A DNA stretch of 22,842 nt from a virus. The position numbers and the translations under genes are program-made. Under the pieces are notes generated by a model. The model did no database searches. It had not been told where the DNA came from and saw only the letters and a list, made by a program, of their open reading frames with translations. Where the stretch lies: UHGV virus genome UHGV-1660455. The stretch is one strand, 5' to 3'. Shown here one piece after another: positions 3,992-22,842 of this stretch. The first letter of the stretch is position 1. Every line of letters begins with the position of its first letter.

Positions 3992-4002
3992 ATTGCGCCC
4001 AT

Positions 4003-4026
4003 AAAAAAGGCCACCCTGAGGTGGCC
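4003..4026 (-). terminator. GC-rich hairpin (GGCCACC-CTGA-GGTGGCC) followed by a U6 run on the minus-strand transcript, between I and J; terminator-like or attenuator element
   Basis: 7-bp perfect stem at 4009-4015/4020-4026, preceded on the plus strand by AAAAAA (4003-4008), which is UUUUUU after the hairpin on the minus-strand RNA; lies in a 52-bp I-J spacer. Confidence 0.5.
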
Positions 4027-4043
4027 TGAAAGGAGGTTTTTAT

Positions 4044-6454: not shown

Positions 6455-6459
6455 AACTG

Positions 6460-8976: not shown

Positions 8977-9307
8977 AGCGCACGCCTCCTGAAATACCTG
9001 CAGCCTTCGCCATCAGCGTATCGTCATCCGGATCATCGATGTCGATGGCTTCCGGTGCAGAGGAAAGAATGCTGAAACTGTCCGGGGTTAACTCCGGATC
9101 GGCAAAAAACAGGGTTGAGATGGTGTAGAGCAAGCCGGAGAAATGTGCGTCCAGCTGCGCATCATGAAAGTAATTGTCCTGGTAGAAGATTTTCCAGTCG
9201 CCGTATTCCGTTGAGGACATGCCAGCAAGCATGGCACGCCAGTCCGGGCGACCGAACTCACGCGCCAGTTTCATGGCAAACTTCAGCTCACTGGCGAGGG
9301 CTTTTCC
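8954..9307 (-). CDS. T: T segment of the tail assembly chaperone G-T fusion, reached by a programmed -1 frameshift from G (putative slip site GGAAAAG at 9301-9307)
   Basis: The ORF in the -1 frame relative to G stays open from the end of G through 8954. The heptamer G_GAA_AAG lies 7 codons before the G stop, at the position where lambda has G_GGA_AAG. Confidence 0.75.
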   Translation of the reverse strand, partial: GKALASELKFAMKLAREFGRPDWRAMLAGMSSTEYGDWKIFYQDNYFHDAQLDAHFSGLLYTISTLFFADPELTPDSFSILSSAPEAIDIDDPDDDTLMAKAAGISGGVRYGPDGSG

Positions 9308-9705
9308 GCAGTAACAGGTTCAGCGGGTTCATTACGTTCTTCACCGGGCTCAGCCTGGTCATCAGTGACCGGCGCAATCATCCCGGACAGGAGTTTCACC
9401 TTATATTCGGCTTCGGCAACAAGTTCGGTCGGCCATGTCTGCATGACCTCATCCTGAATCTGCTCCACTTCCGCCGCCGCGTTTTCTCCCTGCGATCCTT
9501 TAAGCGCGTGGCCATGCCAGAGTGACATTGCCACCAGATATGCTCCACTCTTCACGGTAAGGGTAATGGCAGCCTGAAAATCACCAGCTTCAACCGCCTC
9601 AAGTTGTTTCAGGTATTCGAGGTATTCAATACGCTGCAGCGCCGACAGCTGGAACAATGTGACGCTGCTGCCGTTACTTTCAAGCAGCTCGCTCTTTAGA
9701 AACAT
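9283..9705 (-). CDS. G: Tail assembly chaperone G
   Basis: 140-aa ORF, same length as lambda G, starting MFLK...; follows V. Confidence 0.9.
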   Translation of the reverse strand: MFLKSELLESNGSSVTLFQLSALQRIEYLEYLKQLEAVEAGDFQAAITLTVKSGAYLVAMSLWHGHALKGSQGENAAAEVEQIQDEVMQTWPTELVAEAEYKVKLLSGMIAPVTDDQAEPGEERNEPAEPVTAEKPSPVS

Positions 9706-9741
9706 AATTACTCCGGGGGAACGGGGCTTTCGCCCCGGTTA

Positions 9742-10479
9742 TCAGGAAACAGTGACTTTGCAGATCGCCACAAAGTTACCGTCATTGCTCATTACGATGA
9801 TCTCGACGGTGCCTGCCGCCACGCCGGTAACAGTCAGGGTATTGCCGCTGACGGTGACCGTTGCTTTTGACGGATCAGAACTGGCTACGCGGAAAGACTT
9901 ATCTGAAGCACTTGCTGGCAGGACAGAAACAACCAGTTGCGTCGTGGCCGCGACAGCCACAGCCGCCGTGGATTTATCCAGGCTGATCCCCGTAACGGCA
10001 ATCGGCGCGGTACCACTGTCTTCGGCCAGCGATGGTTTGCCATTGTTGGTGATTTTTGCCGTGCGGGTCATGACCTCTTTAGACGAGATGGTCTTGCCGA
10101 GACTGCTCACCCAGCCCTTAAAGACATCGACAACACCATTCGGATATTTGATTTTATACCCCTTCACGGTGCCTTCATCGAACCAGTTCACCAGGTCCTG
10201 CTGACCGGAATCCTCCGGCATCCATGCGAGCGTCAGGTTTGTTTCACCGGCTGATTTCTGCCCCTGCATCGTTGATGTCCAGTCGGCATTCTCATCATCG
10301 ATGTAGGTGTCATCTTCCGATTCAGCTGTCAGTTCTCCGGGCTGCAGGTCTTTAATCTTTGCCAGGCGCAGCCAGTCAACGTCTGAAAGCGGATTGGCGT
10401 ATGGATCACCAGTTCCGGTGTAAACCCAGAGGGTGGTACCAGCACCTTTTGTTGGTGCCAGCGGGTTTGGTGTGGCCAT
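9742..10479 (-). CDS. V: Major tail tube protein V with C-terminal Ig-like domain
   Basis: 245-aa ORF; the ...[25 protein letters not shown]... N-terminus is recognisably lambda V. Confidence 0.93.
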
Positions 10480-10486
10480 AGGGTCC

Positions 10487-10885
10487 TCACATGTCGTAAG
10501 TAATGGAATATTTCAGGTCGGCAGAACTCCACAGCGCCATATCGTCATCGCGCTGGTAGTCATAGCCCTGCTGAACCATTGTGGTGATAAGAGATTCAAG
10601 CCCCGGAACCTCTGCGAGAACCGGATACACTCTCGTCTCCATCCAGTCATCCAGATCAGAATCAGGTACCTGAGCCTCAAGAAAGACTTCGATATGCAGA
10701 ATGGCCTGCCAGCTATCGGCGTCCAGTTCTTCCCCTGTGTATTCCGCATCTGTCAGGTAGACGGCAACAGCGGGAAAATCACCCTCTTCGAGCACTGCAG
10801 GTCTGCCGTCAAAATAAATGACATCAGTACCAATCGCGCTTTCCAGCGCGTCAATAATCACCTTGCGAATATCGCTGTGTTTCAT
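10487..10885 (-). CDS. U: Tail tube terminator protein U
   Basis: 132-aa ORF with the ...[27 protein letters not shown]... motif pattern of lambda U. Confidence 0.92.
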
Positions 10886-11436
10886 CGTGTCAGAATTAAC
10901 CTGAGTTGGTTGGTAAGGGATGCCCGGAGCTCTTTGGGCATATCTGACTCCATGAGCTTCGGCAGTTCTTCTTTAAATGCCGTAGTTAATGGAGCTGCCA
11001 GCGGGATGCTGACCACTTCAATGGGGTAACGAGGTTTTGAAGTCCGCCTCATGACATGCCAGCGACCATTTTTAAGTTGCTGGATAAAGCCGCCCGGAAA
11101 ACGAAATGGCCCTATGCGAAGAACGCTGTTGGCCCCTTTCTTGTCCCGTTTTCTGCGGGAAAGTCGCACGCTTGCGGTACCGAGTTTAATGGCCGGTAAA
11201 TTTCCCCGGTTTACCCGGATAAGTGCACGAGGTCTATTGACCGTCGCACGCTTCACCCTGGCGCGTTGCTTTACCAGTTTTCGCGGTACGCGCGTATCTT
11301 TTGATACGACTGCCACGCTGCGGCTGACGGCCCGGTTTGCCACGCGGTTAACGGCCTGCGCCGATGCCCGCGGAACAGCCGTTTTGCTGATGCTGTTAAG
11401 GTTTTCTATGGCCTGTTCAAGGCCTTTTATGGACAT
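10882..11436 (-). CDS. Z: Head-tail connector / tail completion protein Z
   Basis: 184-aa basic ORF between FII and U in lambda order. Confidence 0.85.
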   Translation of the reverse strand: MSIKGLEQAIENLNSISKTAVPRASAQAVNRVANRAVSRSVAVVSKDTRVPRKLVKQRARVKRATVNRPRALIRVNRGNLPAIKLGTASVRLSRRKRDKKGANSVLRIGPFRFPGGFIQQLKNGRWHVMRRTSKPRYPIEVVSIPLAAPLTTAFKEELPKLMESDMPKELRASLTNQLRLILTR

Positions 11437-11445
11437 ATGCGCTCC

Positions 11446-11799
11446 TTAACGGCGACGCGAAGATGCAGGTGGAGAGCCGTTACCCAGACAGATATGACAG
11501 GAGCCACAGTCATCCGGACCAATACGTTCAACCCAGAATTGCCGACCGTTAATCGTCAGCGTGTCCATACGCTGCAGCTGCCTGACAGTGGCGGTTTCCA
11601 CAAACAGGGTCGGGCTGGTTCCTTCAACACGAATCCCGGCACCGGCATATCCGATATTTTCTGGATCATCGAATACACCGACCAGGGTGGCACCTGACAA
11701 AGCGCCTGACATCACCTTTGCCTCTGTGCCCATCACACCACGGATAGCGCTATCAGCTCGCGACATGGCCTCGTCAAAGAGATTATCGAAATCAGCCAT
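11446..11799 (-). CDS. FII: Head-tail joining protein FII
   Basis: 117-aa ORF, same length and position as lambda FII. Confidence 0.88.
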   Translation of the reverse strand: MADFDNLFDEAMSRADSAIRGVMGTEAKVMSGALSGATLVGVFDDPENIGYAGAGIRVEGTSPTLFVETATVRQLQRMDTLTINGRQFWVERIGPDDCGSCHICLGNGSPPASSRRR

Positions 11800-11809
11800 G
11801 TGGCCCCCT

Positions 11810-12271
11810 TCAGACTTCGAAAGCCAGCCCCTTTGCGATCAAGTCGTCGGCATCCTGTTCAGATACGCGGATAATCACACCAGGCTCTACGATAGATACC
11901 GGCTCGTTACGCGTGGCATGCAGAGCGTCAATATGCAGGGTGGCCAGCGTTTCTACTGATACCAGGTCACCCGTTGTGGCCGATTCCGTTTTTACTTTTG
12001 CCACGTTAGCAACATTGTTGTCGGTGCTGTCGGTGCTGTCGGTGCTGTCGGTGCTGTCGGAAGCATTCTGCACGCCGTTTTCACCGTCAACTGACCCGGC
12101 ATTGCCATCCAGTTCCTCTTCAAGCTCAGCAATACGCATCGTCAGTTCCTGAATGGTGCCGCTGGTACTGACCTCGCGGTTAAGCTGGGTCCCAAGTTCA
12201 TTCAGGCGGGCGACCAGCTTTTCTTTTTCTGTCATGGGAAATACTCCAGAAAGGTGGCCCGACAGGGCCAC
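11810..12271 (-). CDS. FI: DNA packaging protein FI, with an expanded (DST)n linker
   Basis: 153-aa ORF. The N-terminal ...EL.ARL.ELG.QLNR.VS..GT..EL..R.AEL.EELD... and C-terminal ...LH.DALHATR.EPV... segments are lambda FI-like; the central acidic linker holds the tandem repeat. Confidence 0.88.
   Translation of the reverse strand: MALSGHLSGVFPMTEKEKLVARLNELGTQLNREVSTSGTIQELTMRIAELEEELDGNAGSVDGENGVQNASDSTDSTDSTDSTDNNVANVAKVKTESATTGDLVSVETLATLHIDALHATRNEPVSIVEPGVIIRVSEQDADDLIAKGLAFEV
12021..12060. repeat. Perfect 9-bp tandem repeat (TCGGTGCTG, about 4.4 copies) inside FI, encoding (Asp-Ser-Thr)n on the minus strand
   Basis: Read directly: tcggtgctg x4 followed by tcgg. Confidence 0.95.
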
Positions 12272-12280
12272 TGGGGGAAG

Positions 12281-13306
12281 TTATGCCAGTTTGACGGAGA
12301 CGAATGCGTCAGGGTCTGGCAGCAGCATCAGCGGAGCTGACTGAATCATGGTGAATTCGCGCGCCGGATCCCCCGACTGCACCCAGTTTTTCGGGTAGCG
12401 TGTCGAGGCATTGATACCTTCGCGCTGGGCATCAGCATCAAGAATGCAGCCATAGGTACGCAGGCCACGAGCCTGGGTATTCCCCAGCACCATTGTCAGG
12501 TCCGGCAGATAATTCTTTTTGACGTCGTTTTCGACGTACTGGCCGGAGTACACCACGATGGCCACATCGCCAAACATCCCCTTGTATGAAACAGCCATAC
12601 CCAGGTCTTTCACGGCAGTTTCCAGCTCAGAGTTAGAACCACGACGCGTATCCAGCTTCTTCTCAACAGCCTTGAAGGAACGGAACAGCGCCCAGCCTTT
12701 CGGATCGAACACAATGATGTTGACCACACCGCTGGCGTTGAGCGCGTAGGCTTCAATGTCATCGGTCGGGTCATACGTTTCTTTGTCGCGGGTTGACCAT
12801 GCAGCCGCACCGGCCTGGACAATGTTGTTACCAGCGCTGCGGCCCATATCGACTTCAACAGGCTCGAACGCTTCCCCGGTCATGGTGTATTTACCGCTGA
12901 GCACCGCCGAAACAGCCTGTTTCTCTTCGACCTGAGCAATCGCCAGCTCTTCATCCTTCATGTTCTGAAGGATAATGCGGCGACGGCGATAGACCGGGTC
13001 AGCGAGATTCTGCGGATCCTCATCCGGCAGGCGGCGGAGAGTCATCAGTGGGTTAACTTCGTGTTTCGGCTTCACATAACCCGGCGTGAATTCAGACGTG
13101 CTGCCGCCACGGGAGCGGATCACTTTGCCGGAGACAATCGGCGAGACGTAAAGCGCCATATTGACCAGGCCAGGAATTTGCGACAGGTAAACCTTCTCTG
13201 TACTGAAGGGATAGGTTTCGCGGAAAAAGATACGCAGGAAAAGCGGATCGAATTTGAATTTCTTCTCATTGACCGCCAGCAGTTGGGCAGTGGTGTAAAC
13301 GGACAT
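12281..13306 (-). CDS. E: Major capsid protein E
   Basis: 341-aa ORF, same length as lambda E and highly similar along its whole length (MS.YTTAQLLA.NE.KFKFDPLFLR...). Confidence 0.96.
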   Translation of the reverse strand: MSVYTTAQLLAVNEKKFKFDPLFLRIFFRETYPFSTEKVYLSQIPGLVNMALYVSPIVSGKVIRSRGGSTSEFTPGYVKPKHEVNPLMTLRRLPDEDPQNLADPVYRRRRIILQNMKDEELAIAQVEEKQAVSAVLSGKYTMTGEAFEPVEVDMGRSAGNNIVQAGAAAWSTRDKETYDPTDDIEAYALNASGVVNIIVFDPKGWALFRSFKAVEKKLDTRRGSNSELETAVKDLGMAVSYKGMFGDVAIVVYSGQYVENDVKKNYLPDLTMVLGNTQARGLRTYGCILDADAQREGINASTRYPKNWVQSGDPAREFTMIQSAPLMLLPDPDAFVSVKLA

Positions 13307-13320
13307 AGATTTTTCCCGTA

Positions 13321-13344
13321 AAAAAAGCCGCGCAAGCGGCTTTT
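13321..13344 (-). terminator. Hairpin (GCCGC-GCAA-GCGGC, extendable through flanking A/T) with a U-run, between D and E
   Basis: Inverted repeat read directly; on the minus-strand RNA the stem is followed by UUUUUUU; located in a 67-bp D-E spacer. Confidence 0.5.
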
Positions 13345-13373
13345 ATGAATGATGATGGTTGTAGAAATGCGGA

Positions 13374-13706
13374 TTAAACGATGCTGATTGCAGTACCGGC
13401 GAACGCGTTACGTTTAATGTTGTCGTCGGTGACGGCAGATGGCCAGAGGACATCTTCAATACGGAAAGAGCCAGATTTGTAATATGCCAGTTCCGCGCTG
13501 TTCTGGTCTGCGGTTACAGCCAGGATGCCCATTGCCGCGCCAGCATGAGCACCATCCCAGACGGTCAGCTTGCCAGAAGTGGCATCCAGCATGAGCGGCG
13601 TCATGGCTGGAGTGGAAGCCGTCAGTTCGCCAGGACCATACGCAGTGTGCGCCGGGTCGCTGTTACCGAGCGGCTGGTTATGTGTGAAAACTTCAGTAAT
13701 TGCCAT
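13374..13706 (-). CDS. D: Head decoration protein D
   Basis: 110-aa ORF, same length as lambda D, with the conserved ...GNSDPAHTA... and ...[11 protein letters not shown]-terminus. Confidence 0.95.
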
Positions 13707-13715
13707 GATAGCCTC

Positions 13716-14981
13716 TTAAACGGGGGTGTTTAACAAATCGTCAGCGGCATCAGAAGATGCGCTACCTGCTGGGAGTGCACCGGGTGCTGTTTCCATCAAA
13801 CGATCCAGCGCCGTATCGGTACGCGCCTGGGCACTTTGCGGTGCAGCAGCCAGAATGCGCTGTGCGCTCTCTACCGTCATACCCGGCGTTTCGGCCAGTG
13901 CTCGCGCCTGTGACTCACGCCCTTTAGCCTCATCGCAGTTCAGGATGCCCATGATGCGGCTATTCTCTGCAGCTACTGCTGCAGTAACCTGCGCACTGAC
14001 ATCTACAGGGGCCGCTACGGAAGCAATGGTCGTGTCAACGGTAGTGACCTGTTCAGCTGAGGCAGTTGTCTGAGTTGCTGCCTGGTCAACTGGCTTAGTG
14101 GTCACAGCTGAAGCAGAAGGTGATGGCATAGTTCCTCCAAGGGTTGTTTTTTTGCGTCTGTCGAGTGCTTCGCGCATCACGCCGAGCGCATCGGTATTGT
14201 TAACAAGTTCATCCGCCAGTCCGTTATCCAAAGACTCCTGGCCGGAGAATACTGCCGCTTCGGTGTCCAGCACGTCCTGAACAGACATGCCGGTATAAGC
14301 GGAAACCTTTTCGGCAAACATCTGACGAGTGGCATCGATACGCGTCTGGAAATCAGCACGCACATCTTTCGGAAGCTTTTCGTAAGGGTTGCCGTCGACC
14401 TTGCGATCGCCGCTGTAAATCAGCGTGACCTCAACGCCGTTAGTTTTGAGCGCAGCGCCATAGTTGCTGTGCGCCATCATGACCCCAATGGAGCCGGTTC
14501 TGGCCGTTTGTGTGACCAGCCGTCGCGATGCCGAACTGGCTATAAGCTGCCCTGCACTGCAGTTCATGTCATTGGCCAGCGCCCAGATGGGTTTGATATC
14601 GCGCATACGGGCTATAATGTCGGCGCAGTCAAACGCCCCGGACACCATTCCACCCGGCGTATCCATATCCAGAAGAATGCCGTCAACGCCGGGGTCACTG
14701 ATTGCCTGCTGCAGGCGAGCAATGATCCCGTTGTAACCCGTCATGCCGGAATAAGGCTGAAGCGCACGGGTTTTACTGACCAGCGTGCCGGAAACCGGCA
14801 AGACCGCGATACCATTTGCCACCTGATAGCTGCGTGATGGACGGGGATCCATGTCATCATCCTCACCAAACAGCGCCAGCGGTTCGGCTATTTGTCCGGC
14901 ATCAAGCGTGATGCCAGAGACGGTATCTGTCAGCCGGGTGATGCCCAACTGGCCAGCCAGCGCGCAAATAGGCGGGTTCAA
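13716..14981 (-). CDS. C: Head maturation protease / scaffold protein C (S49 peptidase family; the 3' portion corresponds to the Nu3 scaffold frame); the 5' end appears frameshifted
   Basis: 421-aa ORF that opens on a TTG directly after an in-frame TGA. It is recognisably lambda C from ...CALAGQLG... onwards, but the first 26 C-like codons lie in another frame (next feature). Confidence 0.85.
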   Translation of the reverse strand: MNPPICALAGQLGITRLTDTVSGITLDAGQIAEPLALFGEDDDMDPRPSRSYQVANGIAVLPVSGTLVSKTRALQPYSGMTGYNGIIARLQQAISDPGVDGILLDMDTPGGMVSGAFDCADIIARMRDIKPIWALANDMNCSAGQLIASSASRRLVTQTARTGSIGVMMAHSNYGAALKTNGVEVTLIYSGDRKVDGNPYEKLPKDVRADFQTRIDATRQMFAEKVSAYTGMSVQDVLDTEAAVFSGQESLDNGLADELVNNTDALGVMREALDRRKKTTLGGTMPSPSASAVTTKPVDQAATQTTASAEQVTTVDTTIASVAAPVDVSAQVTAAVAAENSRIMGILNCDEAKGRESQARALAETPGMTVESAQRILAAAPQSAQARTDTALDRLMETAPGALPAGSASSDAADDLLNTPV

Positions 14982-15046
14982 GCATCAGCGGCTCATTAAA
15001 GGCCATACTGGCAATATGCGGAAGATTACGCAGCTCGTGCGCCATC
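14903..15046 (-). other. C: Out-of-frame 5' fragment of gene C: ATG plus 26 codons matching the lambda C N-terminus, then a frame change and premature stop
   Basis: Manual translation from the ATG at 15046 gives [26 protein letters not shown], then unrelated residues and a TGA at 14903-14905. The C homology resumes in the +1 frame at ...ICALAGQLG. Confidence 0.6.
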
Positions 15047-16618
15047 TTGCTCCTCCTCGTTTGATTTTTTCACTCCGGCCTCAAAAGCTGCAGCGGCCCA
15101 TGCCGGTGGTTTCAGACCCGCAGCACGACGCTCCATGGTTTCCCGGACCTGCTGGGCAAAAATCTCCTGATAATCATCACCGCGTTTGGCGCACTCTTTT
15201 TCATACGTGCTGAGACCTGCCTCAATGAGCATGACGGCCTCCTGTACCTCTTTCAGCCCGTCAATTGCCATTCGACCAGAGCCAATCCAGTTGGCATTCC
15301 CCCAGGCTGTTCTCGCCTCCTGGAAACTGAACCGGGCTTTCGAAGGAAGCGTGACCACGCGGCGGACAATCGCCTCTTCAAGCCAGCAAAGAAACATCTG
15401 ACAGGCCTGTCGGGATGCCACAAACTTGCGACGCCCCATAAAGTACGCCCAGGACTCGTTAGCACTTGCGCGTGCGGTCGAGTAGCTCATCTGCGAATAG
15501 TTTCGCGAAAGCTGCTCATACGACACACCAAGCCCAGCGGCAATATAACGCAGCAGGGACTGTTCAAAAGTCGAGTAGCCGTTATCGGTATCCTGCGCCG
15601 ACTGAAGGTTGAGAGAATCACCCGGCAACAGGTGTGGAACCCTTGCCCCACCCAGGCGAACAGGCGCAGCTGAGTAATAGGACGCCATTTCACCGAGCCA
15701 GCCCGTAAGTTTGCTCTGCTGCTCTTTATTATCCGCGCCGAGAATAAAGTCCATCGCCGATTGGGTATCCAGTTCACTCTCGATGGTAGCGGCATACATA
15801 GCCTTCACTATCGCGCTCTGGAGCTGGGTATTTTGCAGGGTATCGAGCATTTTCATCTGCTCCATCACGCTGTAAAACGCATTGGCCCCACGGGTCTGTC
15901 CATCCTCCATCGGTTCGAATACATGGATAAATGAAGGTCGACCGCCGGGTAGTTCGCGAGGAATGTAGGTCCAGTTCTGCGCCATCCAGCCGGGATAACC
16001 ATCGTCGCTGACGTAATATCCCAGCGCAGCACCGCTATCATTTATTTTCACACCGGCGCGACAGTTCCGGGTATCACCGATATTATTCGGATTGCTGACG
16101 CGCTTCGGACTGACCATTTTGAACTGAGTACGGAAAAGACGCGTTGAATCGCTGTCCCAGGTCGCCTGCGTGCATAATTCACCGTTAAACGCGTGCATGG
16201 CCACACCTTCTCGGATCATCATCGTAAACGTTCGCTTACGCTCGGCATCAATCCCGCAAAAGTCGTCCTCGGCATACTCATTCCATGCAGCTTCCACATC
16301 CCGCGAGAATGCCCGTGAATCCTCCTCATTTATTCCCAGATAACGCCAGCTTGGTCGATAACTGAGTCTGAAAAATGACCCGACGATGTGGTCCTGGTGG
16401 AGCTGCACGGCGTTTGCCGCGTAGCCATTATTTCGCACCAGATCGTCAGCGCGGGCATTTCCGCGAGAATAGTTGGGTAGGAGTGCGGCATCTGCACTTT
16501 CACTCGGCGGATTCCAGCCTCGCAGCTGCCCACCAAACCCGCCTCCACCGCCATGATATCCTGCGTATTCCCGAAGGGATGTTTTCCCGTCAGGTCCCAC
16601 CAAAGATGGTATTTTCAT
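15026..16618 (-). CDS. B: Portal protein B
   Basis: 530-aa ORF highly similar to lambda B over its length. Confidence 0.96.
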
Positions 16619-16821
16619 ACGTAAAACCCTGCTGGCCCCCGGCGTCGTGATGTGGTGCCAACCTGAGATTCAAGGTCAGCAATATATTTTTTGAGATCGC
16701 TGACTGAAGTGGCTGTAAATTCCACTCTTCGACCGTCTTTCTGTACCGTCGCCACGCGCTTTCCCATCATCAGGTCATGTAACGCAGCGCGCGCGGCATC
16801 CAGTTCAGTCTGTGTTGCCAT
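16615..16821 (-). CDS. W: Head-tail joining / DNA stabilisation protein W
   Basis: 68-aa ORF, same length as lambda W, with the conserved ...[31 protein letters not shown]... core. Confidence 0.93.
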
Positions 16822-18743
16822 TATTCATCTCCAGATAATGCCCGCGCGTAATCCGCCAGGGTCTTGTTATTGTTACGGCTGCCTTCTTCCTCCAGCAGGC
16901 TGGCCAGAAGTGAATCAAGATTTAGCTGCCAGCGGGATATGCTTATACGCAGCGCCGCCAGTGCATAAACAAAGCAATCGAGCGCCTCATTTCGTCGTTT
17001 TTTGCTGTCCCAGACGATCTTTTTCTTTCCGTCTACCCATTTTTCCACCTGCTCTTCAGCTGTTAGTTGTTGGGCCTCTGTTAGATCGTAGATTTCTGGG
17101 TTATTCGGGAAATGAACCGCTCCCGCCAGCGGCTCGTCTCTTTGCGCCACCAGCGTGAAACGGTTATAAATCTGCTCTTTTGCGGTGTCTGTTCCTACCT
17201 CTGTGAGGTAAACACCATTCTTGTTACGCTTGCGTGGCATGTTCGCCACTGGCTTTCCATAAACCGACGCCCCCTTTATAGGGATCACACGAAACAGACC
17301 GTGTTTTTTTGAGCGGTTGTAGACGATGGTGGGATCAATGCCGCCAATATCCCAGCAAGTGCGGGATATAACCATTTCGAGACCGTTCTGGCGCTTATAC
17401 GTCCTGTTGATCGCTTCATCAACTCGAGCGAGAGTCGACTCATCATCATGACGACCCATAATGATAATTTTGTCGATAAGCCAGCTTTCCTCTCCCGGCC
17501 CCCATCCCCAAACACGCATTTCGTAACGGTCAAGCTGGGAGTCAATACCCGCTGTCAGATATGCCACTCGCTCCGGCACAGACGCTTCAAAGTGCTCTTT
17601 TCGTTCCGCTAAAACTTCAGCATCGGGTCGCTCACCTATTTTCGGTTCCCACGTTTCGCCCAGGGTCGTGTTAACGAAAGTTTTTCGCTTACCCGTATCA
17701 CCTTTTGTTTTTATCCAGTCCTTGACGATCTGCACCCAGGTTGTGAACGGGCTATATGCGGTCCAGATGTGGAATGTAACGCTATCAGGAGGTTCAATTT
17801 CGGTACCGGATGAAGAAAACCAGTTAAGGCCGTCTCGTGTCCAGATACCTGTTTCATCACAAATATACCTGGCCTCCAGAAATTCCAGCTCCTGTTGTTT
17901 AATCACACAGGCATTGTGTTCACAGAGGTAGTAAACGCTGGCAGGTTCTCCCGGAGACCATTTGAAGCCAAATGGTGTCTCTTTATCACCGAATTTCAGA
18001 TACTGCTCTTCCCCACAGTGTGGGCATGGAACATGGAACCGAAGAAAATGTTCAGACTCCTTAGCAGCTCTTTCTATCTGGCACGTACCTTTGACTTTCG
18101 GTGTAGATCCGCGAATGGATTTCGGCCATACAGAACCCTCAATACGCTTATCACCCAGAAAGGTGGGAGAACCTTCTTTCTCGATGTCATCATCGAAAGC
18201 GGCGAGCTCGTCGTAGCCAGCCACATCAACTGATTTTTCACGGTAGTTTTTTGCAGCCTTACCGCCCAGGCACCAGAAACCACGACCATTCGAGAAACGC
18301 TTCATGCTCAGCGTATTGTCCCGGTGTTTTTTACCGTACCAGGGAGCAAGCGCCAGCAACGTCGGAATATCACGAATGGTCGGTTCTACATGAGACTTCA
18401 TGAAGTTTTCAGCATCACCGTCGGTTGGTAACCATATTAGGGAGTTACGCTGTTTATGTTGGATGAAATATGCGTAAACGCCGAGCAACATTTTTGAGTA
18501 GCCGACACGAGCCGATTTAACGACATTCACCTCGCGAATATAGTCATTACCCATCGCATTCATAATTGCACGCTGAAATGGCAGTGTTTCCCAGCGCCCT
18601 TCCTGGTAGGCAGACTCTTTCGGGAGATAATAATTCTCATCTGCCCATTCAACTGCTGTTTGCGGTTGCGGCCGGTACAGCGAACGTAACCCCGCCCGCG
18701 CAGAGTGCTGCAGCCCCTTAACCTGACTGTTCGATATATTCAC
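16821..18743 (-). CDS. A: Terminase large subunit A (gpA; ATPase/endonuclease)
   Basis: 640-aa ORF near-colinear with lambda gpA (MNISNSQV... N-terminus; Walker and nuclease regions conserved). Confidence 0.97.
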
Positions 18744-19263
18744 TCAGCAACCCCGGTATCATTTCATCCAGCGCAGCTGCCTTGTTCATGGCCTTAATGA
18801 TGTCCTTCTTGAGGAAATCAATATGTCGGTTCTCCAGCTCCGGGAAGCGCCGCTGAACCGACAGAGGTATTCCATCGAGAATGCTGGCGATTTCTCCGGC
18901 TACCCGCGACAGCACGAACGTGCAGAATGCGGTCTCCACCACTTCAGCGGACTCTTTTGCATTTTTTAATTCCTGAGCGTCAGCCTGAGCTCGCGTAAGT
19001 CGGTGTCGCTCATATTCAATCGTGCCAGGTTGAAGATCGGACTCAGAAGCGATACGGAGATCTTCAACTTCCTTCCGCAACTTTTCATTTTCTATAGCTG
19101 CATCGCGCGCACTGTACCATTCGATTGCAGCAGCAGATTCAAAGAGAACCTCATTACCTTTGCCACCACCGCGGACAACCGGCATACCTTGCTCCTGCCA
19201 GTTCTGAATCGTTCGGACGCTTACCCCGAAAATTTCGGATAAGCGTTTTTTGTTAACCTCCAT
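18718..19263 (-). CDS. Nu1: Terminase small subunit Nu1
   Basis: 181-aa ORF, same length as lambda Nu1; N-terminal winged-helix region MEVNKK...IRTIQNWQEQGMPV.RGGGKGNEVL... essentially as in lambda. Confidence 0.96.
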   Translation of the reverse strand: MEVNKKRLSEIFGVSVRTIQNWQEQGMPVVRGGGKGNEVLFESAAAIEWYSARDAAIENEKLRKEVEDLRIASESDLQPGTIEYERHRLTRAQADAQELKNAKESAEVVETAFCTFVLSRVAGEIASILDGIPLSVQRRFPELENRHIDFLKKDIIKAMNKAAALDEMIPGLLSEYIEQSG

Positions 19264-19438
19264 GGCTTACTCCTGGCAAAAAACAGAGAAAGGAAACAAT
19301 CAACGGTAAACTTCCGTTTTCCTTGCTCAGCATTTCCTTTCTGGAGAGAGGACGTTTTTAACAAAAACAATGAGTAAACAAGAAGAAGAACGGAAATGGC
19401 ATAAACCAGAAAATTTTCATAAATAGCGAGAATCTGCG

Positions 19439-19450
19439 CGGACGCCGCCC
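19439..19450 (-). other. cos: cosN cohesive-end site (predicted 12-nt overhang 5'-GGGCGGCGTCCG-3' on the phage l-strand), with cosQ-like and cosB-like flanks
   Basis: The revcomp of 19400-19500 aligns by eye with the lambda right-end/left-end junction (...GTTACG|GGGCGGCG....|CGCTATTTATGAAAATTTTC.GG...), about 180 bp upstream of Nu1. Confidence 0.75.
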
Positions 19451-19511
19451 CGTAACAGGCCGGATCGCCGGAAAGGACCCGCAAACGATATTAATTATCA
19501 TTTGCATATCA

Positions 19512-20186
19512 TCATCGACGGCACTGCTGCCAGATAACACCACCGGGGAGACATTCCATCATGATGGCCGTGCGGACATAGGAAGCCAGTTCATCCATCG
19601 CTTTCTTGTCTGCTGCCATTTGCTTTGCAACATCCAGATCCGCACATTCAGCAGTATTTTTCAGCGCGTTATCAAGCACCGCTTCGAGATTGGTATCAAC
19701 GCCAGAGTTAACTTCAAATTTGTCGGCGCTGATGGTTACCTTGTTCTGTACTGGCTCATCACGCAGGATACCAAGGCTGATGTTGTAGACTTTGGTCACC
19801 GACTGAGGCTTTTCTAATTCGGCGGCGCGGATAGAACCACCAGCGATATTGGCTTCCTTGATGAATACCTCACCGTTCTTCACAACAAATGGTGAGGTAT
19901 CAATCTCAACGCCAAGCGTCATCGAAGCGCAATATTGCTGCTTACCAAAACGCGTATTGACCAGGTGTTCAACGGCAAATTTCTGCCCTTCTGATGTCAG
20001 AAAGGTAAAGTGATTTTCTTTCTGGTATTCGGTTGCTGTATGTCTGGTTTCAGCAAAGCCAAACTCGCGCAATTCAGCGGCACCAGATTTAGACGGCAGG
20101 TCACCTGACAGCAACGCGCCACGGAAAAAGAGCGAATACAGAACATCCGTCGCCGCACCGGATAACGTAATGATTTTCTGACCCAT
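19512..20186 (-). CDS. Conserved lambdoid-phage protein of unknown function, encoded just upstream of cos
   Basis: 224-aa ORF with an AAAGGAAA ribosome-binding site. It resembles proteins found at the right end of lambdoid genomes, but my recollection of the exact family is uncertain. Confidence 0.6.
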   Translation of the reverse strand: MGQKIITLSGAATDVLYSLFFRGALLSGDLPSKSGAAELREFGFAETRHTATEYQKENHFTFLTSEGQKFAVEHLVNTRFGKQQYCASMTLGVEIDTSPFVVKNGEVFIKEANIAGGSIRAAELEKPQSVTKVYNISLGILRDEPVQNKVTISADKFEVNSGVDTNLEAVLDNALKNTAECADLDVAKQMAADKKAMDELASYVRTAIMMECLPGGVIWQQCRR

Positions 20187-20446
20187 TATTTATTTCCTTT
20201 TAGGCGTGAGCCTGTCGCACGGCAAAGCCGCCGAAAGTTAACGGTTTGCCCAGGCTCACAGCTGAAAGACTTTCTTTGATGTGCGCGTGCGATGCGCATA
20301 AATGCCGCGCGATGCGGTTACTGTCTGAATATCAGGGTATTACTTCGTTTTAACCCCGGGTAAGGTAAGCATTCAGCCCGTCAGTGGTGGGACACTGATT
20401 CACGCAAAGAGGAGGAATGGCTGAATAACTCTTCGAAGGAAAAAGG

Positions 20447-20911
20447 ATGATCACCAAAGTAAAAATCAAGTTTATTTCCCCTATTGATGGATCGGTATCA
20501 GATACCCCCACGGAGCATGCAATTCCCGTAGTTCCATTGACAGTATGGCCAAGTAGCTCAAAAGATATAAACGTTTATAAACCAAATGGATTGAAGGCTG
20601 GTGCCTACGCACTTATAGATACCGGAGCAGATCTTTGCTATGTGGATTCAGACTTTGCTGACGATTTAAAACTCCCAATCGCGGAAAAAACAACTGTGAG
20701 CGGAGCCACCTCAACAATAGAAACTACAGTTCGGCATGCGGTAATATCGTTCACTGAGGACGAAAGAGTTTTTTCAACAGAATTGACTTCAGTGCCATTG
20801 GTAAGTAACGGGAGAAAATTCCAAGTCGTTTTCGGAATGCAACTAATTAAAATGGGCGCCCTTACGATGGATTTTTCCAATCAAGTATTTGAGTTAACAT
20901 TTTTTAACTAA
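20447..20911 (+). CDS. Retropepsin-like (clan AA) aspartic protease, 154 aa; AT-rich moron gene on the strand opposite the late operon
   Basis: ORF with a good Shine-Dalgarno (AAGGAAAAAGG-ATG) and the canonical aspartic-protease signature hydrophobic-hydrophobic-D-T-G-A (..YALIDTGADLCYVD..). Markedly lower GC than the flanking phage genes. Confidence 0.75.
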   Translation: MITKVKIKFISPIDGSVSDTPTEHAIPVVPLTVWPSSSKDINVYKPNGLKAGAYALIDTGADLCYVDSDFADDLKLPIAEKTTVSGATSTIETTVRHAVISFTEDERVFSTELTSVPLVSNGRKFQVVFGMQLIKMGALTMDFSNQVFELTFFN

Positions 20912-21055
20912 CCCCCCAGGGATACCTCCCTCTTTTGCAAGACTGGATAAGGGCATTGCTTTTGCTGTTTTCCTAGAATCGGTACCAGAATTGAGTTGCG
21001 ATTTAATGTCTTTTAATTCGCTCTCAATTCTCTTTACACGTTCAGCTAAAGTCAT
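20894..21055 (-). CDS. Small hypothetical protein (53 aa, N-terminal predicted helix ERVKRIESELKDIKSQL), convergent with and overlapping the 3' end of the protease gene
   Basis: Hand-translated; absent from the ORF track because it is under 60 aa. Strong ribosome-binding site (AAGAGG, 6 nt before the ATG). Same low-GC module. Confidence 0.35.
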   Translation of the reverse strand: MTLAERVKRIESELKDIKSQLNSGTDSRKTAKAMPLSSLAKEGGIPGGLVKKC

Positions 21056-21176
21056 GATTGCCTCTTAATAATCGCTTAACATCTACAAAGCCTTCCCGAA
21101 GACAATACATACCATTATCAAGCCCACCAGCAGGTGAGCTTTGTAATGGAAAGCCGTTGTGAAAGTGGCTCTCAAA

Positions 21177-21194
21177 AACCACAGATTTGTGGTT
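21177..21194 (-). terminator. Weak hairpin (AACCACA-GATT-TGTGGTT) with a U-run on the minus-strand RNA, at the 3' end of the Rha-like gene
   Basis: 7-bp inverted repeat overlapping the stop codon by 2 nt; followed on the minus-strand RNA by UUUUGAG. Confidence 0.35.
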
Positions 21195-21879
21195 ATGCGG
21201 CCAAGCGGTGCTGCTCTTCGATAAGTGGCTGGCGGTGATTACGCTCGAACATGCCGCGCAGCACTTCTTTGCGTTGTTCGAAGTCCCACCCCATGCTGAT
21301 GAATACCGTGTTGGCGCGCTGTAGCTCGGTGATGCAGTGAATTTGTTCCGGCGTCAGGTAATCGCGGATCGGCTCTTTCTTCCCGATTTCGTGATGCACG
21401 CGGAACTTGGCCGCCGTCATGCCCAGCGCCAGTCGGTTAATCAGGTCAGCTTCGTTGCTGAAGTGATGCGGGGCGATCTGCTTACCCTGCGCCTCACGCT
21501 CATGCTTGATGGCATCGGTCATAGGCTTGTACTCCAGACGCGCCGAGTTGCGATCCATCTTCTTCTTCGCCAGCGCGCTGCGCATAGTGAAGAATTCATA
21601 TACCAAGCGCTTTTTGAATTCACGCACAACTTCATTGTTTCGCATGTAGGTGATCAACAGCGTGGTTTGCTGTTCGTTTAGCAGTGCTATTTCCTGCTTC
21701 TGCATGCCCCCATCCGTTTGAAAGGGTCGCATTTCAAATTCCACCCTTCCGAATTCTTCGAGGTCGCTTTTGTACTTCCTGATGAGTTGAATCACTGGCT
21801 TGTGATCCTTCATAACACCACTGGCGATCACTGCCGAGTTGGTGACCAGGTCTAGCTTCTTGATTTCTACTAATTGCAT
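21193..21879 (-). CDS. rha: Phage regulatory protein of the Rha family (antirepressor-like)
   Basis: The N-terminus ..LVTNSAVIASGVMKDHKPVIQLIRK.. fits the Rha-domain pattern (T.SS..IA...GK.H..V.R.IR). The tracked ORF runs to 21963, but the Met at 21879 has a plausible ribosome-binding site and begins the conserved domain. Confidence 0.7.
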   Translation of the reverse strand: MQLVEIKKLDLVTNSAVIASGVMKDHKPVIQLIRKYKSDLEEFGRVEFEMRPFQTDGGMQKQEIALLNEQQTTLLITYMRNNEVVREFKKRLVYEFFTMRSALAKKKMDRNSARLEYKPMTDAIKHEREAQGKQIAPHHFSNEADLINRLALGMTAAKFRVHHEIGKKEPIRDYLTPEQIHCITELQRANTVFISMGWDFEQRKEVLRGMFERNHRQPLIEEQHRLAA

Positions 21880-22032
21880 GGCGTGTACCTTTCTTTGAGA
21901 TGAACCTTTGCCGCACAGGAAATCAGCCCGTCGAGGCTCGCCAGCACTAACTGACTTCCTCAAAGGCTCATTTCAAAGGGTATGGTTCGACGTGGGTTGA
22001 ATGCGCTGCGGTGCGCGGTGAAATTCTGGCAT

Positions 22033-22057
22033 AAAAAAGCCCGACCGAAGTCAGGCT
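22033..22057 (-). terminator. Intrinsic terminator after Rz/Rz1 (stem AGCCUGAC / GUCGGGCU, UUCG loop, then UUUUUUAU on the minus-strand RNA)
   Basis: 8-bp stem with one G-U pair and a UUCG tetraloop followed by a U6 run; lies 20 nt beyond the Rz stop. Confidence 0.65.
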
Positions 22058-22076
22058 CTGTTATTTGGGTAACGAA

Positions 22077-22535
22077 TCATTTAAGACACTGCTCTTTGAT
22101 GTATTCCTGCAAATATCCAACCTGTTTCGTCACTGTGACGATTCGCTCTCTGAGGGTGAAATAATCCCGTTCAGCGGAGTCAGTAAGTCGGGGGCCGGTA
22201 ACATCGCCCAGGCCGCCGGTGCTGGTCGTTCCGTTCGCGGGACAGTTTGCGTTGAGCTGCAGCCGCTTACGGCCAGCAATGACATCGCTATGCAGACGCT
22301 CAATGGTTTCTTTCGCATCAGCCAGTTCTCCGGTGTATTTGGCATCCAGTGCAGCGACATCACGCTGGCGGGTCTGCATGTCTTTAATGGTGGCGGTCGC
22401 CAGGAGGAGTTTCTCAGTGGCCTTATCGCGCTGGTCTCTGTAAGTGATGGCGTTGTCGCGGTAGTGGTTCACGAAGAAATTAACGCCAGCACCAGCAACT
22501 GCAGCCAGTAACGCTTAACCAGTGCGCTAATCATG
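22077..22535 (-). CDS. Rz: Rz inner-membrane spanin subunit (i-spanin); the N-terminal transmembrane region appears interrupted by a frameshift
   Basis: The ..[28 protein letters not shown].. periplasmic domain is lambda Rz-like. The ATG at 22533-22535 overlaps the lysozyme stop but is in a different frame from the body of the gene. Confidence 0.85.
22130..22318 (-). CDS. Rz1: Rz1 outer-membrane lipoprotein spanin subunit (o-spanin), embedded in the +1 frame of Rz
   Basis: Lipobox LLAVSG|C followed by a Pro-rich segment ..[26 protein letters not shown].., closely resembling lambda Rz1; wholly nested inside Rz. Confidence 0.85.
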
Positions 22536-22842
22536 ACAGGAACAGAGCTCGCTCTGCCTTGCGGCGATTCGTGAGCCCCGGCATCACCTTTCCGCCTGAT
22601 TTATTCCAGCGCAGAAATTCATCTGCCGCGCCTTTTATATCGCCAGCATTCAGCTTTTTCAGCAGTGTAGATGTGGAAAGAGCACGCGACCCAACGTTGT
22701 AAGCGAACGACACCAGTGCGTCGAACTGGCCTTGTGTCAGCTTCACCCTGACAACTTTCAGCACGTCATTCTCATAACCAACAAGCCCTGTTTTCAGAAG
22801 CCTGTCAGCGGTTTGCTGGTCGATAGTCATACCGCGCTTTAC
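22531..22842 (-). CDS. Endolysin, P22 gp19 / T4 lysozyme-like (GH24 family); 3' part only, the 5' end lies beyond the window
   Basis: The C-terminus ...[11 protein letters not shown] and preceding ..QGQFDALVSFAYNVG.. match P22-type lysozymes, not the lambda R transglycosylase. The frame is open to the window edge. Confidence 0.85.
   Translation of the reverse strand, partial: VKRGMTIDQQTADRLLKTGLVGYENDVLKVVRVKLTQGQFDALVSFAYNVGSRALSTSTLLKKLNAGDIKGAADEFLRWNKSGGKVMPGLTNRRKAERALFLS

What the first reader, a model, noticed from the sequence alone, without database searches (positions are those of the whole stretch)
20187..21192. AT-rich moron encoding a retropepsin-like aspartic protease, between the lysis cassette and cos
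A roughly 1-kb patch of clearly lower GC interrupts an otherwise lambda-colinear late region. It carries a 154-aa ORF on the strand opposite to all surrounding phage genes, with its own Shine-Dalgarno and the canonical aspartic-protease active-site motif (ALIDTGAD) in a single-domain, presumably homodimeric, format. Retropepsin-like proteins are not part of the lambda virion or lysis programme. Its position (the Rz-to-cos moron slot that holds bor in lambda), opposite orientation and foreign composition mark it as horizontally acquired cargo, probably expressed from the prophage. Its function is unknown; superinfection exclusion, anti-phage defence or modification of a host protein are all possible.
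Basis: partly seen in the sequence, partly recalled or inferred. Interest (0 to 1): 0.75.

Follow-up and report, generated by a model that had tools for sequence, protein, structure and literature searches.

The report
Retropepsin-like protease moron in prophage
A lambda-like Enterobacter prophage carries, backwards inside its late genes, a small foreign gene for an HIV-protease-like enzyme of unknown role; the gene sits in a swappable cassette that holds at least 19 unrelated mystery genes in other phages.

Summary
ORF 20447-20911 (+), 154 aa, lies antisense to every neighbouring phage gene in the lowest-GC stretch of the window (0.405 against a mean of 0.532). It has a confidently predicted retropepsin fold. 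D58-T-G and G130 are invariant across the family.

It is cargo, not core. The closest phage, mEp237, lacks it, and no deposited phage or complete E. coli genome encodes it. Distant homologues (204 clusters) were found in nine independent prophage contexts (Enterobacter, Pseudomonas, Azotobacter). Each one is antisense to the late operon and lower in GC than its surroundings.

The mobile unit is about 850 bp (20300-21149):
- a roughly 150-nt conserved leader;
- the cargo ORF;
- a convergent 53-aa late-strand ORF.

The same leader precedes 19 other unrelated cargo families in more than 120 viral contigs, including the HK022 gp23 and ES18 gp25 morons. It matches no Rfam family and has no consensus promoter.

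Public databases already label the protein "retropepsin-like aspartic protease", and I found no functional study.

My best reading is a cytoplasmic homodimeric aspartic protease made by the lysogen, most plausibly excluding or aborting other phages. Expression, activity and target are all untested. I rate it a new member of known kinds, of moderate interest.

The parts
20447..20911 (+). 154-aa retropepsin-like aspartic protease ORF. No signal peptide or TM segment is visible in the sequence. Residues 1-26 are an N-terminal extension, about 27-140 the retropepsin core, and 137-152 a C-terminal beta-hairpin.
20609..20632 (+). Active-site motif A55-L-I-D58-T-G-A-D62. The catalytic Asp codon is 20618-20620. 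A55, L56, D58, T59 and G60 are invariant and A61 and D62 at least 90% conserved in 63 family members.
20300..20446 (+). Conserved portable leader directly upstream of the cargo ORF. The same element precedes 19 other unrelated cargo families in other phages.
20373..20397 (+). Invariant core of the leader, TCAGCCCGTCAGTGGTGGGACACTG. It contains the 5' arm of putative helix P1 (UCAGCC) and hairpin P2.
   Evidence: 0 matches expected by chance
20417..20428 (+). Mini upstream ORF, ATG GCT GAA TAA, behind a strong GGAGG. ATGGCTGA is near-invariant at the nucleotide level. The uORF length varies among copies (3 to more than 12 codons). GGCUGA is complementary to UCAGCC at 20373-20378.
20304..20318 (.). 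Hairpin at the 5' edge of the leader. In most copies it reads AAAAAGCCGC-loop-GCGGCT, an intrinsic terminator on the late (-) strand, and the stem covaries (G-C to A-U). It is degenerate in this window.
   Evidence: (ES18 annotation)
20894..21055 (-). Convergent 53-aa late-strand ORF overlapping the protease 3' end by 18 nt. Its N-terminus MTLAERV..IE belongs to a recurrent MTLEQRVEALEK-type small-ORF family found at the same place in other cassettes. Its C-terminus is cassette-specific.
21111..21149 (.). Right-hand junction. This 39-bp block is shared with SaltyDalty, E. coli 730V1, mEp213 and ECP1, which carry other or no cargo. Homology with all Enterobacter copies ends at 21149.
20300..21149 (.). 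The whole mobile cassette (850 bp), as delimited by homology breakpoints among prophages with different backbones.
20188..20302 (.). Conserved lambdoid intergenic DNA outside the cassette. It is present in mEp237, HK639, phi80 and others without leader or protease.
19512..20186 (-). Flanking 224-aa late-strand ORF. It has a conserved phi80-like N-terminus, a variable C-terminus and weak PF09327 similarity. It is the last gene before cos.
21193..21963 (-). Flanking Rha-family regulator gene between Rz and the cassette.

Best explanation
The ORF encodes a soluble, cytoplasmic, single-domain aspartic endopeptidase of the retropepsin type (clan AA). Like all retropepsins it should work only as a homodimer, in which two D58-T-G loops form one catalytic site under two flaps (the conserved V-x-G-A-T-S-T hairpin).

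It is not part of the phage's lytic machinery. It is the cargo of an 850-bp, low-GC moron cassette inserted antisense into the late operon between the lysis genes and cos. The cassette spreads by recombination between two conserved arms: the roughly 150-nt leader, and the right junction with the N-terminus of the small ORF.

Because it runs against the late transcript, it is probably made from the repressed prophage and silenced by convergent late transcription during lytic growth. In the lysogen it most plausibly cleaves a protein of an incoming phage, or a host protein needed by one. That would give exclusion or abortive infection.

Shown here: gene, fold, catalytic motif conservation, foreign composition, mobility, antisense placement, cassette architecture.
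Inferred: dimer, catalytic activity, lysogen expression.
Speculative (about 0.35-0.4 on its own): the anti-phage role.
For: Fold and catalytic residues:
- Pfam Asp_protease_2, 26.7 bits against a cut-off of 24.3.
- AF2 with a 63-sequence alignment, pLDDT 89.8, pTM 0.85.
- Foldseek top hits are HTLV-1 protease, APRc, Ddi1, EIAV and FIV proteases.
- Profile against PDB: HTLV-1 protease E=7e-7, aligned over residues 28-139, with ALIDTGAD on ALLDTGAD and ILGM on IIGRD.
- D58, T59, G60 and G130 are invariant in 63 sequences of 18-97% identity.

Moron status:
- Lowest GC in the window.
- Absent from mEp237, which is 98.5% identical in the structural genes.
- Absent from 50,697 phage records (tblastn) and from 5,426 E. 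coli genomes.
- The same 850 bp sits in Enterobacter prophages with different terminases, lysis cassettes and replication modules.

Family-wide pattern:
- Nine independent contexts (L001-10, L011/12, L014, L015, L148, L149, L150, L151/152) all lie inside siphophage late operons, antisense to them.
- The gene was 3-15 GC points below its locus in all eight contexts measured.

Cassette:
- The leader is shared with the HK022 gp23 and ES18 gp25 morons and about 19 other cargo families.
- 88 of 105 assessable copies are antisense to their neighbours and none is co-oriented.

Defence hint: 15 of 63 family members weakly match PDC-M08B, a component of a PADLOC candidate defence system; best E is 1.4e-5.
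Against: - No sigma-70 consensus promoter is found in 20100-21300 or at a fixed position in 99 leader copies.
- No terminator-like site follows the ORF. Autonomous transcription is therefore not shown.
- No expression, activity or phenotype data exist, and literature searches found nothing.
- The window protein's own PADLOC match is not significant (E=0.02).
- The dimer was not modelled.
- Some retropepsin-fold proteins with an intact DTG motif (Ddi1 is the usual example) have been hard to show active in vitro (from my own knowledge).
Confidence: 0.6

Rival explanations
1. Lytic-cycle accessory or anti-defence factor. The protease is made during infection or induction and cleaves a host defence or stress protein to help the phage.
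For: Variable cassettes in phage genomes often hold anti-defence genes (from my own knowledge). The leader has no recognisable housekeeping promoter, so expression could depend on a phage or stress factor. All cargo families are of unknown function.
Against: All nine family contexts and 88 of 105 leader copies are antisense to the late operon. That placement fits lysogen expression, as for lambda bor, and exposes the gene to head-on late transcription. The gene is also far from the early regions.
Confidence: 0.15
2. Catalytically silent retropepsin-fold protein that acts by binding, for example a peptide-binding inhibitor or scaffold, rather than by cleavage.
For: No activity data exist. The N-terminal 26-residue extension and C-terminal hairpin are additions to the minimal fold and could occlude the cleft or change oligomerisation.
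Against: D-T-G, A61, D62 and the hydrophobic-hydrophobic-Gly130 motif are invariant or nearly so across sequences as low as 18-30% identical. That is hard to explain without catalysis.
Confidence: 0.1
3. A two-gene module in which the convergent 53-aa protein is the protease's substrate, inhibitor or antitoxin.
For: The two ORFs always travel together in Enterobacter and overlap by 18 nt. Small convergent ORFs also abut the protease in L149, L150 and L151.
Against: The small ORFs next to distant homologues are unrelated in sequence, and none was called at that position in L011, L014 or L015. The 53-aa N-terminus (MTLxERV..E) belongs to the cassette arm and occurs next to unrelated cargo. Neither protein matches any PADLOC toxin-antitoxin model significantly.
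Confidence: 0.05
4. A morphogenetic or processing protease of the phage itself (head, tail or lysis maturation).
For: It is a protease gene inside the late region. In Pseudomonas prophages it often sits among tail-tip genes.
Against: It is on the opposite strand to the late operon, has foreign GC and is sporadic. mEp237, with 98.5% identical structural genes, lacks it. These phages already carry their own S49, ClpP or S78 head proteases.
Confidence: 0.02

Closest known systems
Retroviral proteases (MEROPS family A2), e.g. HTLV-1 protease
   Same: Same fold and size of core. The D-T-G-A-D active-site loop, flap hairpin and hydrophobic-hydrophobic-Gly motif are shared. The family profile aligns end to end with HTLV-1 protease at E=7e-7, and HTLV-1 protease is the top Foldseek hit.
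   Different: This is a free-standing bacterial prophage gene, not excised from a Gag-Pro-Pol polyprotein. It has an extra 26-residue N-terminal beta extension and a C-terminal beta-hairpin. Identity is only 12-17%.
APRc, the retropepsin-like protease of Rickettsia conorii (PDB 5c9b/5c9f)
   Same: A bacterial single-domain retropepsin fold; Foldseek ranks 2-5, TM 0.56-0.65 on the target.
   Different: APRc is a chromosomal, membrane-embedded protein with an N-terminal transmembrane region (from my own knowledge). The window protein has no hydrophobic segment and is phage cargo. Identity is 8-13%.
Ddi1 retroviral-protease-like (RVP) domain
   Same: Same fold, including the C-terminal L-x-x-D motif. 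The profile gives E about 1e-3 over residues 54-151.
   Different: Ddi1 is eukaryotic and carries ubiquitin-like and UBA domains. There are no such domains here.
Classical lambdoid morons: lambda bor, HK97 gp15, HK022 gp23, ES18 gp25
   Same: An insertion between late genes, with deviant GC and sporadic distribution (definition in PMC3594210). It occupies the Rz-to-cos slot that bor holds in lambda. It has literally the same leader sequence as HK022 gp23 and ES18 gp25.
   Different: The cargo is an enzyme of 154 aa rather than a small membrane, lipo- or helical protein. The promoter and terminator expected of a moron were not detectable.
Lit protease of prophage e14 (abortive infection by cleaving EF-Tu)
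   Same: A functional analogy only: a prophage-encoded protease that acts in the lysogen against other phages (from my own knowledge).
   Different: Lit is a zinc metalloprotease with no sequence or fold relation. An equivalent role for the window protein is untested.
PADLOC candidate system PDC-M08, component B
   Same: A small protein (127-position profile). 15 of 63 family members match the PDC-M08B model, best E=1.4e-5.
   Different: The window protein itself matches only at E=0.02. No partner gene A was identified here. PDC-M08 is itself only a computational candidate, and I found no paper on it.

Membership tests
Retropepsin-like aspartic peptidases (clan AA) | Catalytic Asp in a hydrophobic-hydrophobic-D-T/S-G-A loop | tested here: met
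   A55-L-I-D58-T-G-A-D62. D58, T59 and G60 are invariant in 63 sequences. The loop aligns on ALLDTGAD of HTLV-1 protease.
Retropepsin-like aspartic peptidases (clan AA) | Single-lobe beta-barrel retropepsin fold with a flap hairpin | tested here: met
   AF2 pLDDT 89.8. All 45 best PDB matches are retropepsins, APRc or Ddi1, except one mycobacterial aspartic-protease-like domain, Rv0977. Hairpin 78-102 carries the conserved G-A-T-S-T.
Retropepsin-like aspartic peptidases (clan AA) | Second conserved motif, hydrophobic-hydrophobic-Gly followed by a short helix (ILGRD/N in retroviruses) | tested here: met
   V-F-G130-M-Q-L. G130 is invariant and helix 131-134 is present in the model.
Retropepsin-like aspartic peptidases (clan AA) | Score above a curated family threshold | tested here: met
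   Pfam PF13650, 26.7 bits against a gathering score of 24.3. PF13975, PF00077 and NCBIfam TIGR03698 fall below their cut-offs, so it is an outlying subfamily.
Retropepsin-like aspartic peptidases (clan AA) | Obligate homodimer forming one active site | not tested
Inferred from the single DTG per chain.
Retropepsin-like aspartic peptidases (clan AA) | Pepstatin-sensitive endopeptidase activity | not testable with these tools
   Needs biochemistry.
Phage moron (Juhala/Hendrix sense; PMC3594210) | Extra DNA present in some phages and absent at the same position in close relatives | tested here: met
   mEp237 lacks it. mEp213, HK633, SaltyDalty and E. coli 730V1 carry other cargo or none at that slot.
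Phage moron (Juhala/Hendrix sense; PMC3594210) | Base composition different from the surrounding genes | tested here: met
   0.405 against 0.532 +/- 0.035. The same holds in all eight family contexts measured.
Phage moron (Juhala/Hendrix sense; PMC3594210) | Own promoter and terminator | tested here: inconclusive
   No sigma-70 consensus in 20100-21300 or at a fixed place in 99 leaders. The only + strand terminator-like site lies inside the ORF. A promoter of another type is not excluded.
Phage moron (Juhala/Hendrix sense; PMC3594210) | Expressed from the repressed prophage | not testable with these tools
   Needs lysogen RNA-seq. The antisense orientation is only suggestive.
Known anti-phage defence systems (PADLOC-DB 2.0) | Significant match to a component model, with the system's partner genes adjacent | tested here: not met
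   Only PDC-M08B at E=0.02 for the window protein, and no partner. Some relatives reach 1.4e-5.
Described RNA families (Rfam 15), for the leader | Match to a covariance model | tested here: not met
   No hit at E<=1 in window 19000-22842. In four other leader-bearing loci the only hit at E<=1 was a sub-threshold istR match elsewhere in L022, not at the leader.

The most novel reading that the evidence does not exclude
The roughly 150-nt leader is an undescribed cis-regulatory RNA. It may be a pseudoknot in which the invariant UCAGCC pairs with the invariant GGCUGA of a mini-uORF. It would define a cassette system that shuffles 20 or more unrelated lysogen-expressed genes among enterobacterial siphophages. 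Its retropepsin cargo would be the first aspartic-protease effector of phage exclusion or abortive infection. The leader could then be used as a 'guilt-by-leader' handle to discover new exclusion or defence genes.
Probability: 0.2. Interest if true: 0.8.

Novelty: new member of a known kind. Interest (0 to 1): 0.5.

Why it matters
Prophage morons are a main source of lysogenic conversion and phage-exclusion genes, yet most are small proteins with no recognisable chemistry. This one has a clear enzymatic fold, with a catalytic motif invariant across a family that, in every context examined, occurs only as antisense insertions in prophage late operons of Enterobacter, Pseudomonas and Azotobacter. 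That gives a clean experimental entry point: a D58 mutant, pepstatin and substrate trapping.

The exact protein is recorded on hundreds of contigs of Enterobacter hormaechei, an organism I know as a hospital pathogen, so any effect on phage susceptibility bears on phage therapy.

The shared leader also ties the gene to HK022 gp23, ES18 gp25 and about 19 other unknown cargo families. It offers a sequence handle for cataloguing a whole pool of exchangeable prophage accessory genes.

Tried and rejected
Searches that found nothing:
- No PHROG family for the protease or the 53-aa ORF.
- No tblastn hit in 50,697 phage records.
- No hit over the ORF in 5,426 E. coli genomes; only the flanks match.
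- Single-sequence search of PDB found nothing. The profile was needed.

Structure:
- The first AF2 run with 5 sequences was poor (pLDDT 64). It was replaced by the 63-sequence run.
- The afdb50 fold library was unavailable.

Leader:
- No Rfam family.
- No unusual folding energy on either strand (z = +0.23 and -0.85).
- No positionally conserved sigma-70 promoter on either strand.
- The mini-uORF is not a conserved peptide; its length varies from 3 to more than 12 codons.
- Covariation is convincing only for the terminator hairpin. P1 is invariant, and P2 and P3 change on one side only.
- A covariance-model search of 1.12 Mb found no diverged copies that could add covariation.
- I considered the prophage anti-sRNAs of Tree et al. 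2014 (PMC4104026). They sit at a different site, are 51-60 nt long, and no Rfam family matched the leader here.

Ideas rejected:
- A protease plus 53-aa toxin-antitoxin or substrate pair, because the partner is not conserved with the family and its N-terminus belongs to the cassette arm.
- A retroelement remnant: in the loci whose called genes and Pfam hits were listed, no reverse-transcriptase or integrase domain was called next to the protease gene.

Literature: searches for retropepsin or aspartic protease together with prophage, moron, anti-phage or superinfection exclusion, and for PDC-M08, returned nothing.
Full report
**1. What is in the sequence**

The window is a lambda-like late region read on its reverse strand. 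All of these genes are on the - strand, confirmed by Pfam:
- phage lysozyme, 22531-22830;
- Rz, 22077-22472, with embedded Rz1, 22130-22363;
- a Rha-family regulator, 21193-21963;
- a 224-aa ORF, 19512-20186;
- Nu1, 18718-19263;
- terminase gpA, 16821-18743.

A cosN-like sequence lies at 19439-19450, and phage N15's left genome end aligns at window 19450. The interval therefore sits between the lysis cassette and cos, the slot that holds bor in lambda (the bor placement is from my own knowledge).

The only sizeable + strand ORF is 20447-20911: 154 aa, ATG start, with AAGGA 6 nt upstream. ALIDTGAD is residues 55-62.

GC of 20432-21110 is 0.405. That is the lowest of all 679-bp windows in the 22.8-kb sequence (mean 0.532, sd 0.035). 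GC3 is 0.355, against 0.50-0.66 in the neighbours.

**2. The protein is a retropepsin-fold aspartic protease**

- Pfam Asp_protease_2 scores 26.7 bits against a cut-off of 24.3. The related models gag-asp_proteas and RVP and NCBIfam TIGR03698 fall below their cut-offs. It is an outlying subfamily.
- An exhaustive HMMER search of 1.84 billion representatives with a 5-sequence profile found 204 clusters at E<=1e-3 and 39 at E<=1e-10. Nearly all are 140-175 aa and match full length.
- In alignments of 42 and 63 members (identity to the window protein 18-97%), D58, T59, G60 and G130 are invariant. P27, A61, D62, L139 and D142 are at least 90% conserved.
- With the 63-sequence alignment AlphaFold2 gives pLDDT 89.8 and pTM 0.85. 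A 5-sequence run had given only 64.
- Foldseek against the PDB returns, in order, HTLV-1 protease, Rickettsia APRc, Toxoplasma Ddi1 and EIAV and FIV proteases, with TM 0.56-0.67 on the target.
- The family profile hits HTLV-1 protease at E=7e-7 over residues 28-139. ALIDTGAD aligns on ALLDTGAD and ILGM on IIGRD.
- The core therefore starts near P27. Residues 1-26 (two short strands) and the C-terminal hairpin 137-152 are additions.
- I see no signal peptide or hydrophobic segment, so the protein is cytoplasmic. This differs from APRc, which is membrane-embedded (the APRc localisation is from my own knowledge).
- Free-standing retropepsin-like proteins of about 135-180 aa also exist in uncultured phages in BFVD, at about 13-19% identity.

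**3. It is mobile cargo**

The nearest phage for the structural genes is mEp237, 98.5% identical over window 1424-19263. It shares the 224-aa-type gene and 20188-20302, then diverges. It has no reverse-oriented gene in this slot.

No record among 50,697 phages encodes the protein (tblastn). No complete E. coli genome among 5,426 contains the ORF.

The exact protein is on record on 487 contigs as [quoted passage not shown]. A 97% variant is named "retropepsin-like aspartic protease". The fold assignment is therefore already in public annotation, and the window is most likely an E. cloacae-complex prophage.

Ten loci encoding the 97% variant carry it in prophages with different terminases (TerL with Terminase_4 or Terminase_2), different lysis cassettes (GH19, GH108 or lambda-type lysozyme) and different replication modules. 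It is always between lysis and packaging genes and always opposite to them. Homology among these loci and the window is confined to 20196/20300-21149. That defines an 850-bp unit.

**4. The family as a whole behaves the same way**

I looked up seven further independent homologues (30-39% identity) from Pseudomonas, Azotobacter and metagenomes. All lie inside siphophage late operons and are antisense to every neighbour, but at different sites:
- between a late regulator and the holins (L011, L012);
- between tail completion and tail tube genes (L014);
- between gpK-like and gpI/J-like tail-tip genes (L015, L148, L150, L151);
- between head-tail connector genes (L149).

GC was measured in eight of the nine contexts, counting the Enterobacter one. 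In every case the gene's GC is 3-15 points below its locus. No conserved partner gene accompanies the family.

This is a clade of retropepsins that, as far as sampled, exists only as prophage morons.

**5. The cassette and its leader**

The 147 nt before the ATG (20300-20446) are not specific to this gene. The same element, at 72-85% identity with blocks up to 27 nt invariant, lies directly upstream of unrelated reverse-oriented ORFs in:
- HK022 (gp23, annotated "moron gene product");
- ES18 (gp25, "possible moron");
- HK633, mEp213, SPN3UB, Oslo, SaltyDalty and CharmingMan;
- a second site in the same Enterobacter prophages.

Together with the loci fetched earlier, this gave 139 cargo ORFs downstream of the leader. 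They fall into 20 BLAST-unrelated families, mostly 62-98 aa. The retropepsin accounts for 18 loci. Of the ten sequences I tested (nine cargo families and one of the convergent MTLEQRV-type small ORFs), none had a known function in PHROGs or Pfam; one cargo is DUF1883.

Of the non-redundant copies, 88 of 105 assessable ones are antisense to the neighbouring long ORFs, 17 are mixed and none is co-oriented. The element occurs in 149 of 5,426 E. coli genomes.

On the other side of the cargo, a small late-strand ORF converges on it. In many cassettes this ORF begins MTLEQRVEALEK and has a cassette-specific C-terminus. The window's 53-aa ORF (MTLAERVKRIESEL...) is a member. A 39-bp block at 21111-21149 is shared with phages carrying other cargo.

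The simplest reading is that cargo is exchanged by recombination between two conserved arms.

**6. What the leader is remains open**

- It begins with a hairpin that is an intrinsic terminator on the late strand. ES18's annotators assigned it to gene 24. Its stem covaries G-C to A-U.
- Downstream, the invariant UCAGCC is complementary to the invariant GGCUGA 45 nt later. That second block was not part of my search pattern and overlaps a mini-uORF start.
- A hairpin CGUCAGUG/CACUGGCG lies between them.
- GAGG/CCUC could close a pseudoknot around the uORF.
- In this structure 93% of cells pair, against 25-45% when partners are slid. Apart from the terminator hairpin, however, the pairs are invariant or change on one side only, so the fold is not demonstrated.
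- There is no Rfam family, no unusual folding energy and no positionally conserved sigma-70 promoter.
- The uORF peptide is not conserved.
- A covariance model finds 103 copies, all at 93 bits or more, and nothing weaker.

**7. Mechanism**

Shown: a conserved, apparently catalysis-competent retropepsin domain; foreign composition; mobility; antisense placement; a shared cassette.

Inferred from what is established for retropepsins: one DTG per chain implies a homodimeric active site.

Inferred from orientation, by analogy with lambda bor: expression in the lysogen, and interference from head-on late transcription after induction.

Speculative: the target. A prophage-encoded protease acting against other phages has a precedent in Lit of e14 (from my own knowledge). 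In addition, 15 of 63 family members weakly match component B of PADLOC's candidate system PDC-M08, best E=1.4e-5. The window protein itself matches only at E=0.02.

My estimates are about 0.9 for "retropepsin-fold moron cargo", about 0.7 for "active protease" and about 0.35-0.4 for "phage exclusion or abortive infection".

Rivals:
- a lytic-cycle or anti-defence factor (0.15);
- a binding-only pseudo-enzyme (0.1);
- a pair with the 53-aa protein (0.05);
- a morphogenetic protease (0.02).

**8. Comparison with what is known, and novelty**

By every feature testable here it is a member of the retropepsin-like clan AA peptidases. It fits the moron concept on distribution and composition but not, so far, on a detectable promoter and terminator.

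I found no paper linking retropepsin-like or aspartic proteases with prophages, morons or anti-phage defence. The moron literature I read does not describe the leader (PMC3594210, PMC4104026, PMC6814406, PMC9928086).

The protein is already auto-annotated in databases, so I rate it a new member of known kinds, with interest 0.5. The leader-defined cassette pool is the more original by-product and deserves its own follow-up.

Noticed in passing
window 20300-20446; also L019 1501-1633 (HK022), L020 1501-1631 (ES18), L021 1272-1421, L001 6431-6585, L003 6489-6644 and more than 100 IMG/VR loci: A roughly 150-nt leader, tightly conserved (27-nt invariant blocks), precedes 20 unrelated reverse-oriented cargo ORF families in enterobacterial siphophages. 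It has no Rfam family, no consensus promoter and no paper found. It may fold as a pseudoknot (UCAGCC:GGCUGA, CGUCAGUG:CACUGGCG, GAGG:CCUC) around a mini-uORF. The covariance model finds 103 copies at 93 bits or more and nothing weaker.
   Followed up: partly
window 20894-21055 (-); equivalents in L018 1147-1305 and many IMG/VR loci: The small late-strand ORFs that converge on the cargo share an N-terminus, MTL(E/A)(Q/E)R(V/I)xxLE, but have cassette-specific C-termini that overlap the cargo 3' end. The conserved part seems to belong to the right recombination arm of the cassette.
   Followed up: partly
window 21193-21963 (-): A Rha-family regulator gene sits in the late region between Rz and the cassette. 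Its C-terminal half matches PADLOC candidate PDC-S22 at E=3.9e-15. It is present in L003 but replaced by other genes in most other Enterobacter loci, so it is probably another accessory insertion.
   Followed up: no
window 19512-20186 (-): The last gene before cos is a 224-aa protein. Its N-terminal roughly 85 residues are conserved (phi80, mEp213, mEp237, SaltyDalty). Its C-terminus is variable, ends in a PGGxIW-like motif and has weak PF09327 (lambda J tail-tip) similarity. Function unknown. The Enterobacter loci have 266-308-aa versions.
   Followed up: no
L015 7880-8000, L148 6880-7000, L151 5968-6000, L150 5880-6000, L014 7880-8000: The Pseudomonas and Azotobacter homologues have their own recurring upstream motifs: GTAGTAGC, and a hairpin CCCAGTCCTT...AAGGACTGGG just before the start codon. 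These are unrelated in sequence to the enterobacterial leader. A second, lineage-specific leader may exist.
   Followed up: no
L001 6431-6869, L003 6489-6901, L069 236-391 and 4360-4516: Single prophages can carry two leader cassettes with different cargo, for example the retropepsin plus an 85-94-aa helical protein near the HNH/terminase genes.
   Followed up: partly
window 19439-19450 (-): GGGCGGCGTCCG has two mismatches from lambda cosN. It lies exactly where N15's genome end aligns (window 19450), so it is most likely the cohesive-end site of this phage.
   Followed up: partly
L151 5428-5967 (+), L152 349-888 (+): In one Pseudomonas-type lineage the retropepsin gene is preceded on the same strand by a 179-aa protein with hydrophobic segments. 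This is the only case seen of a possible co-oriented partner.
   Followed up: no
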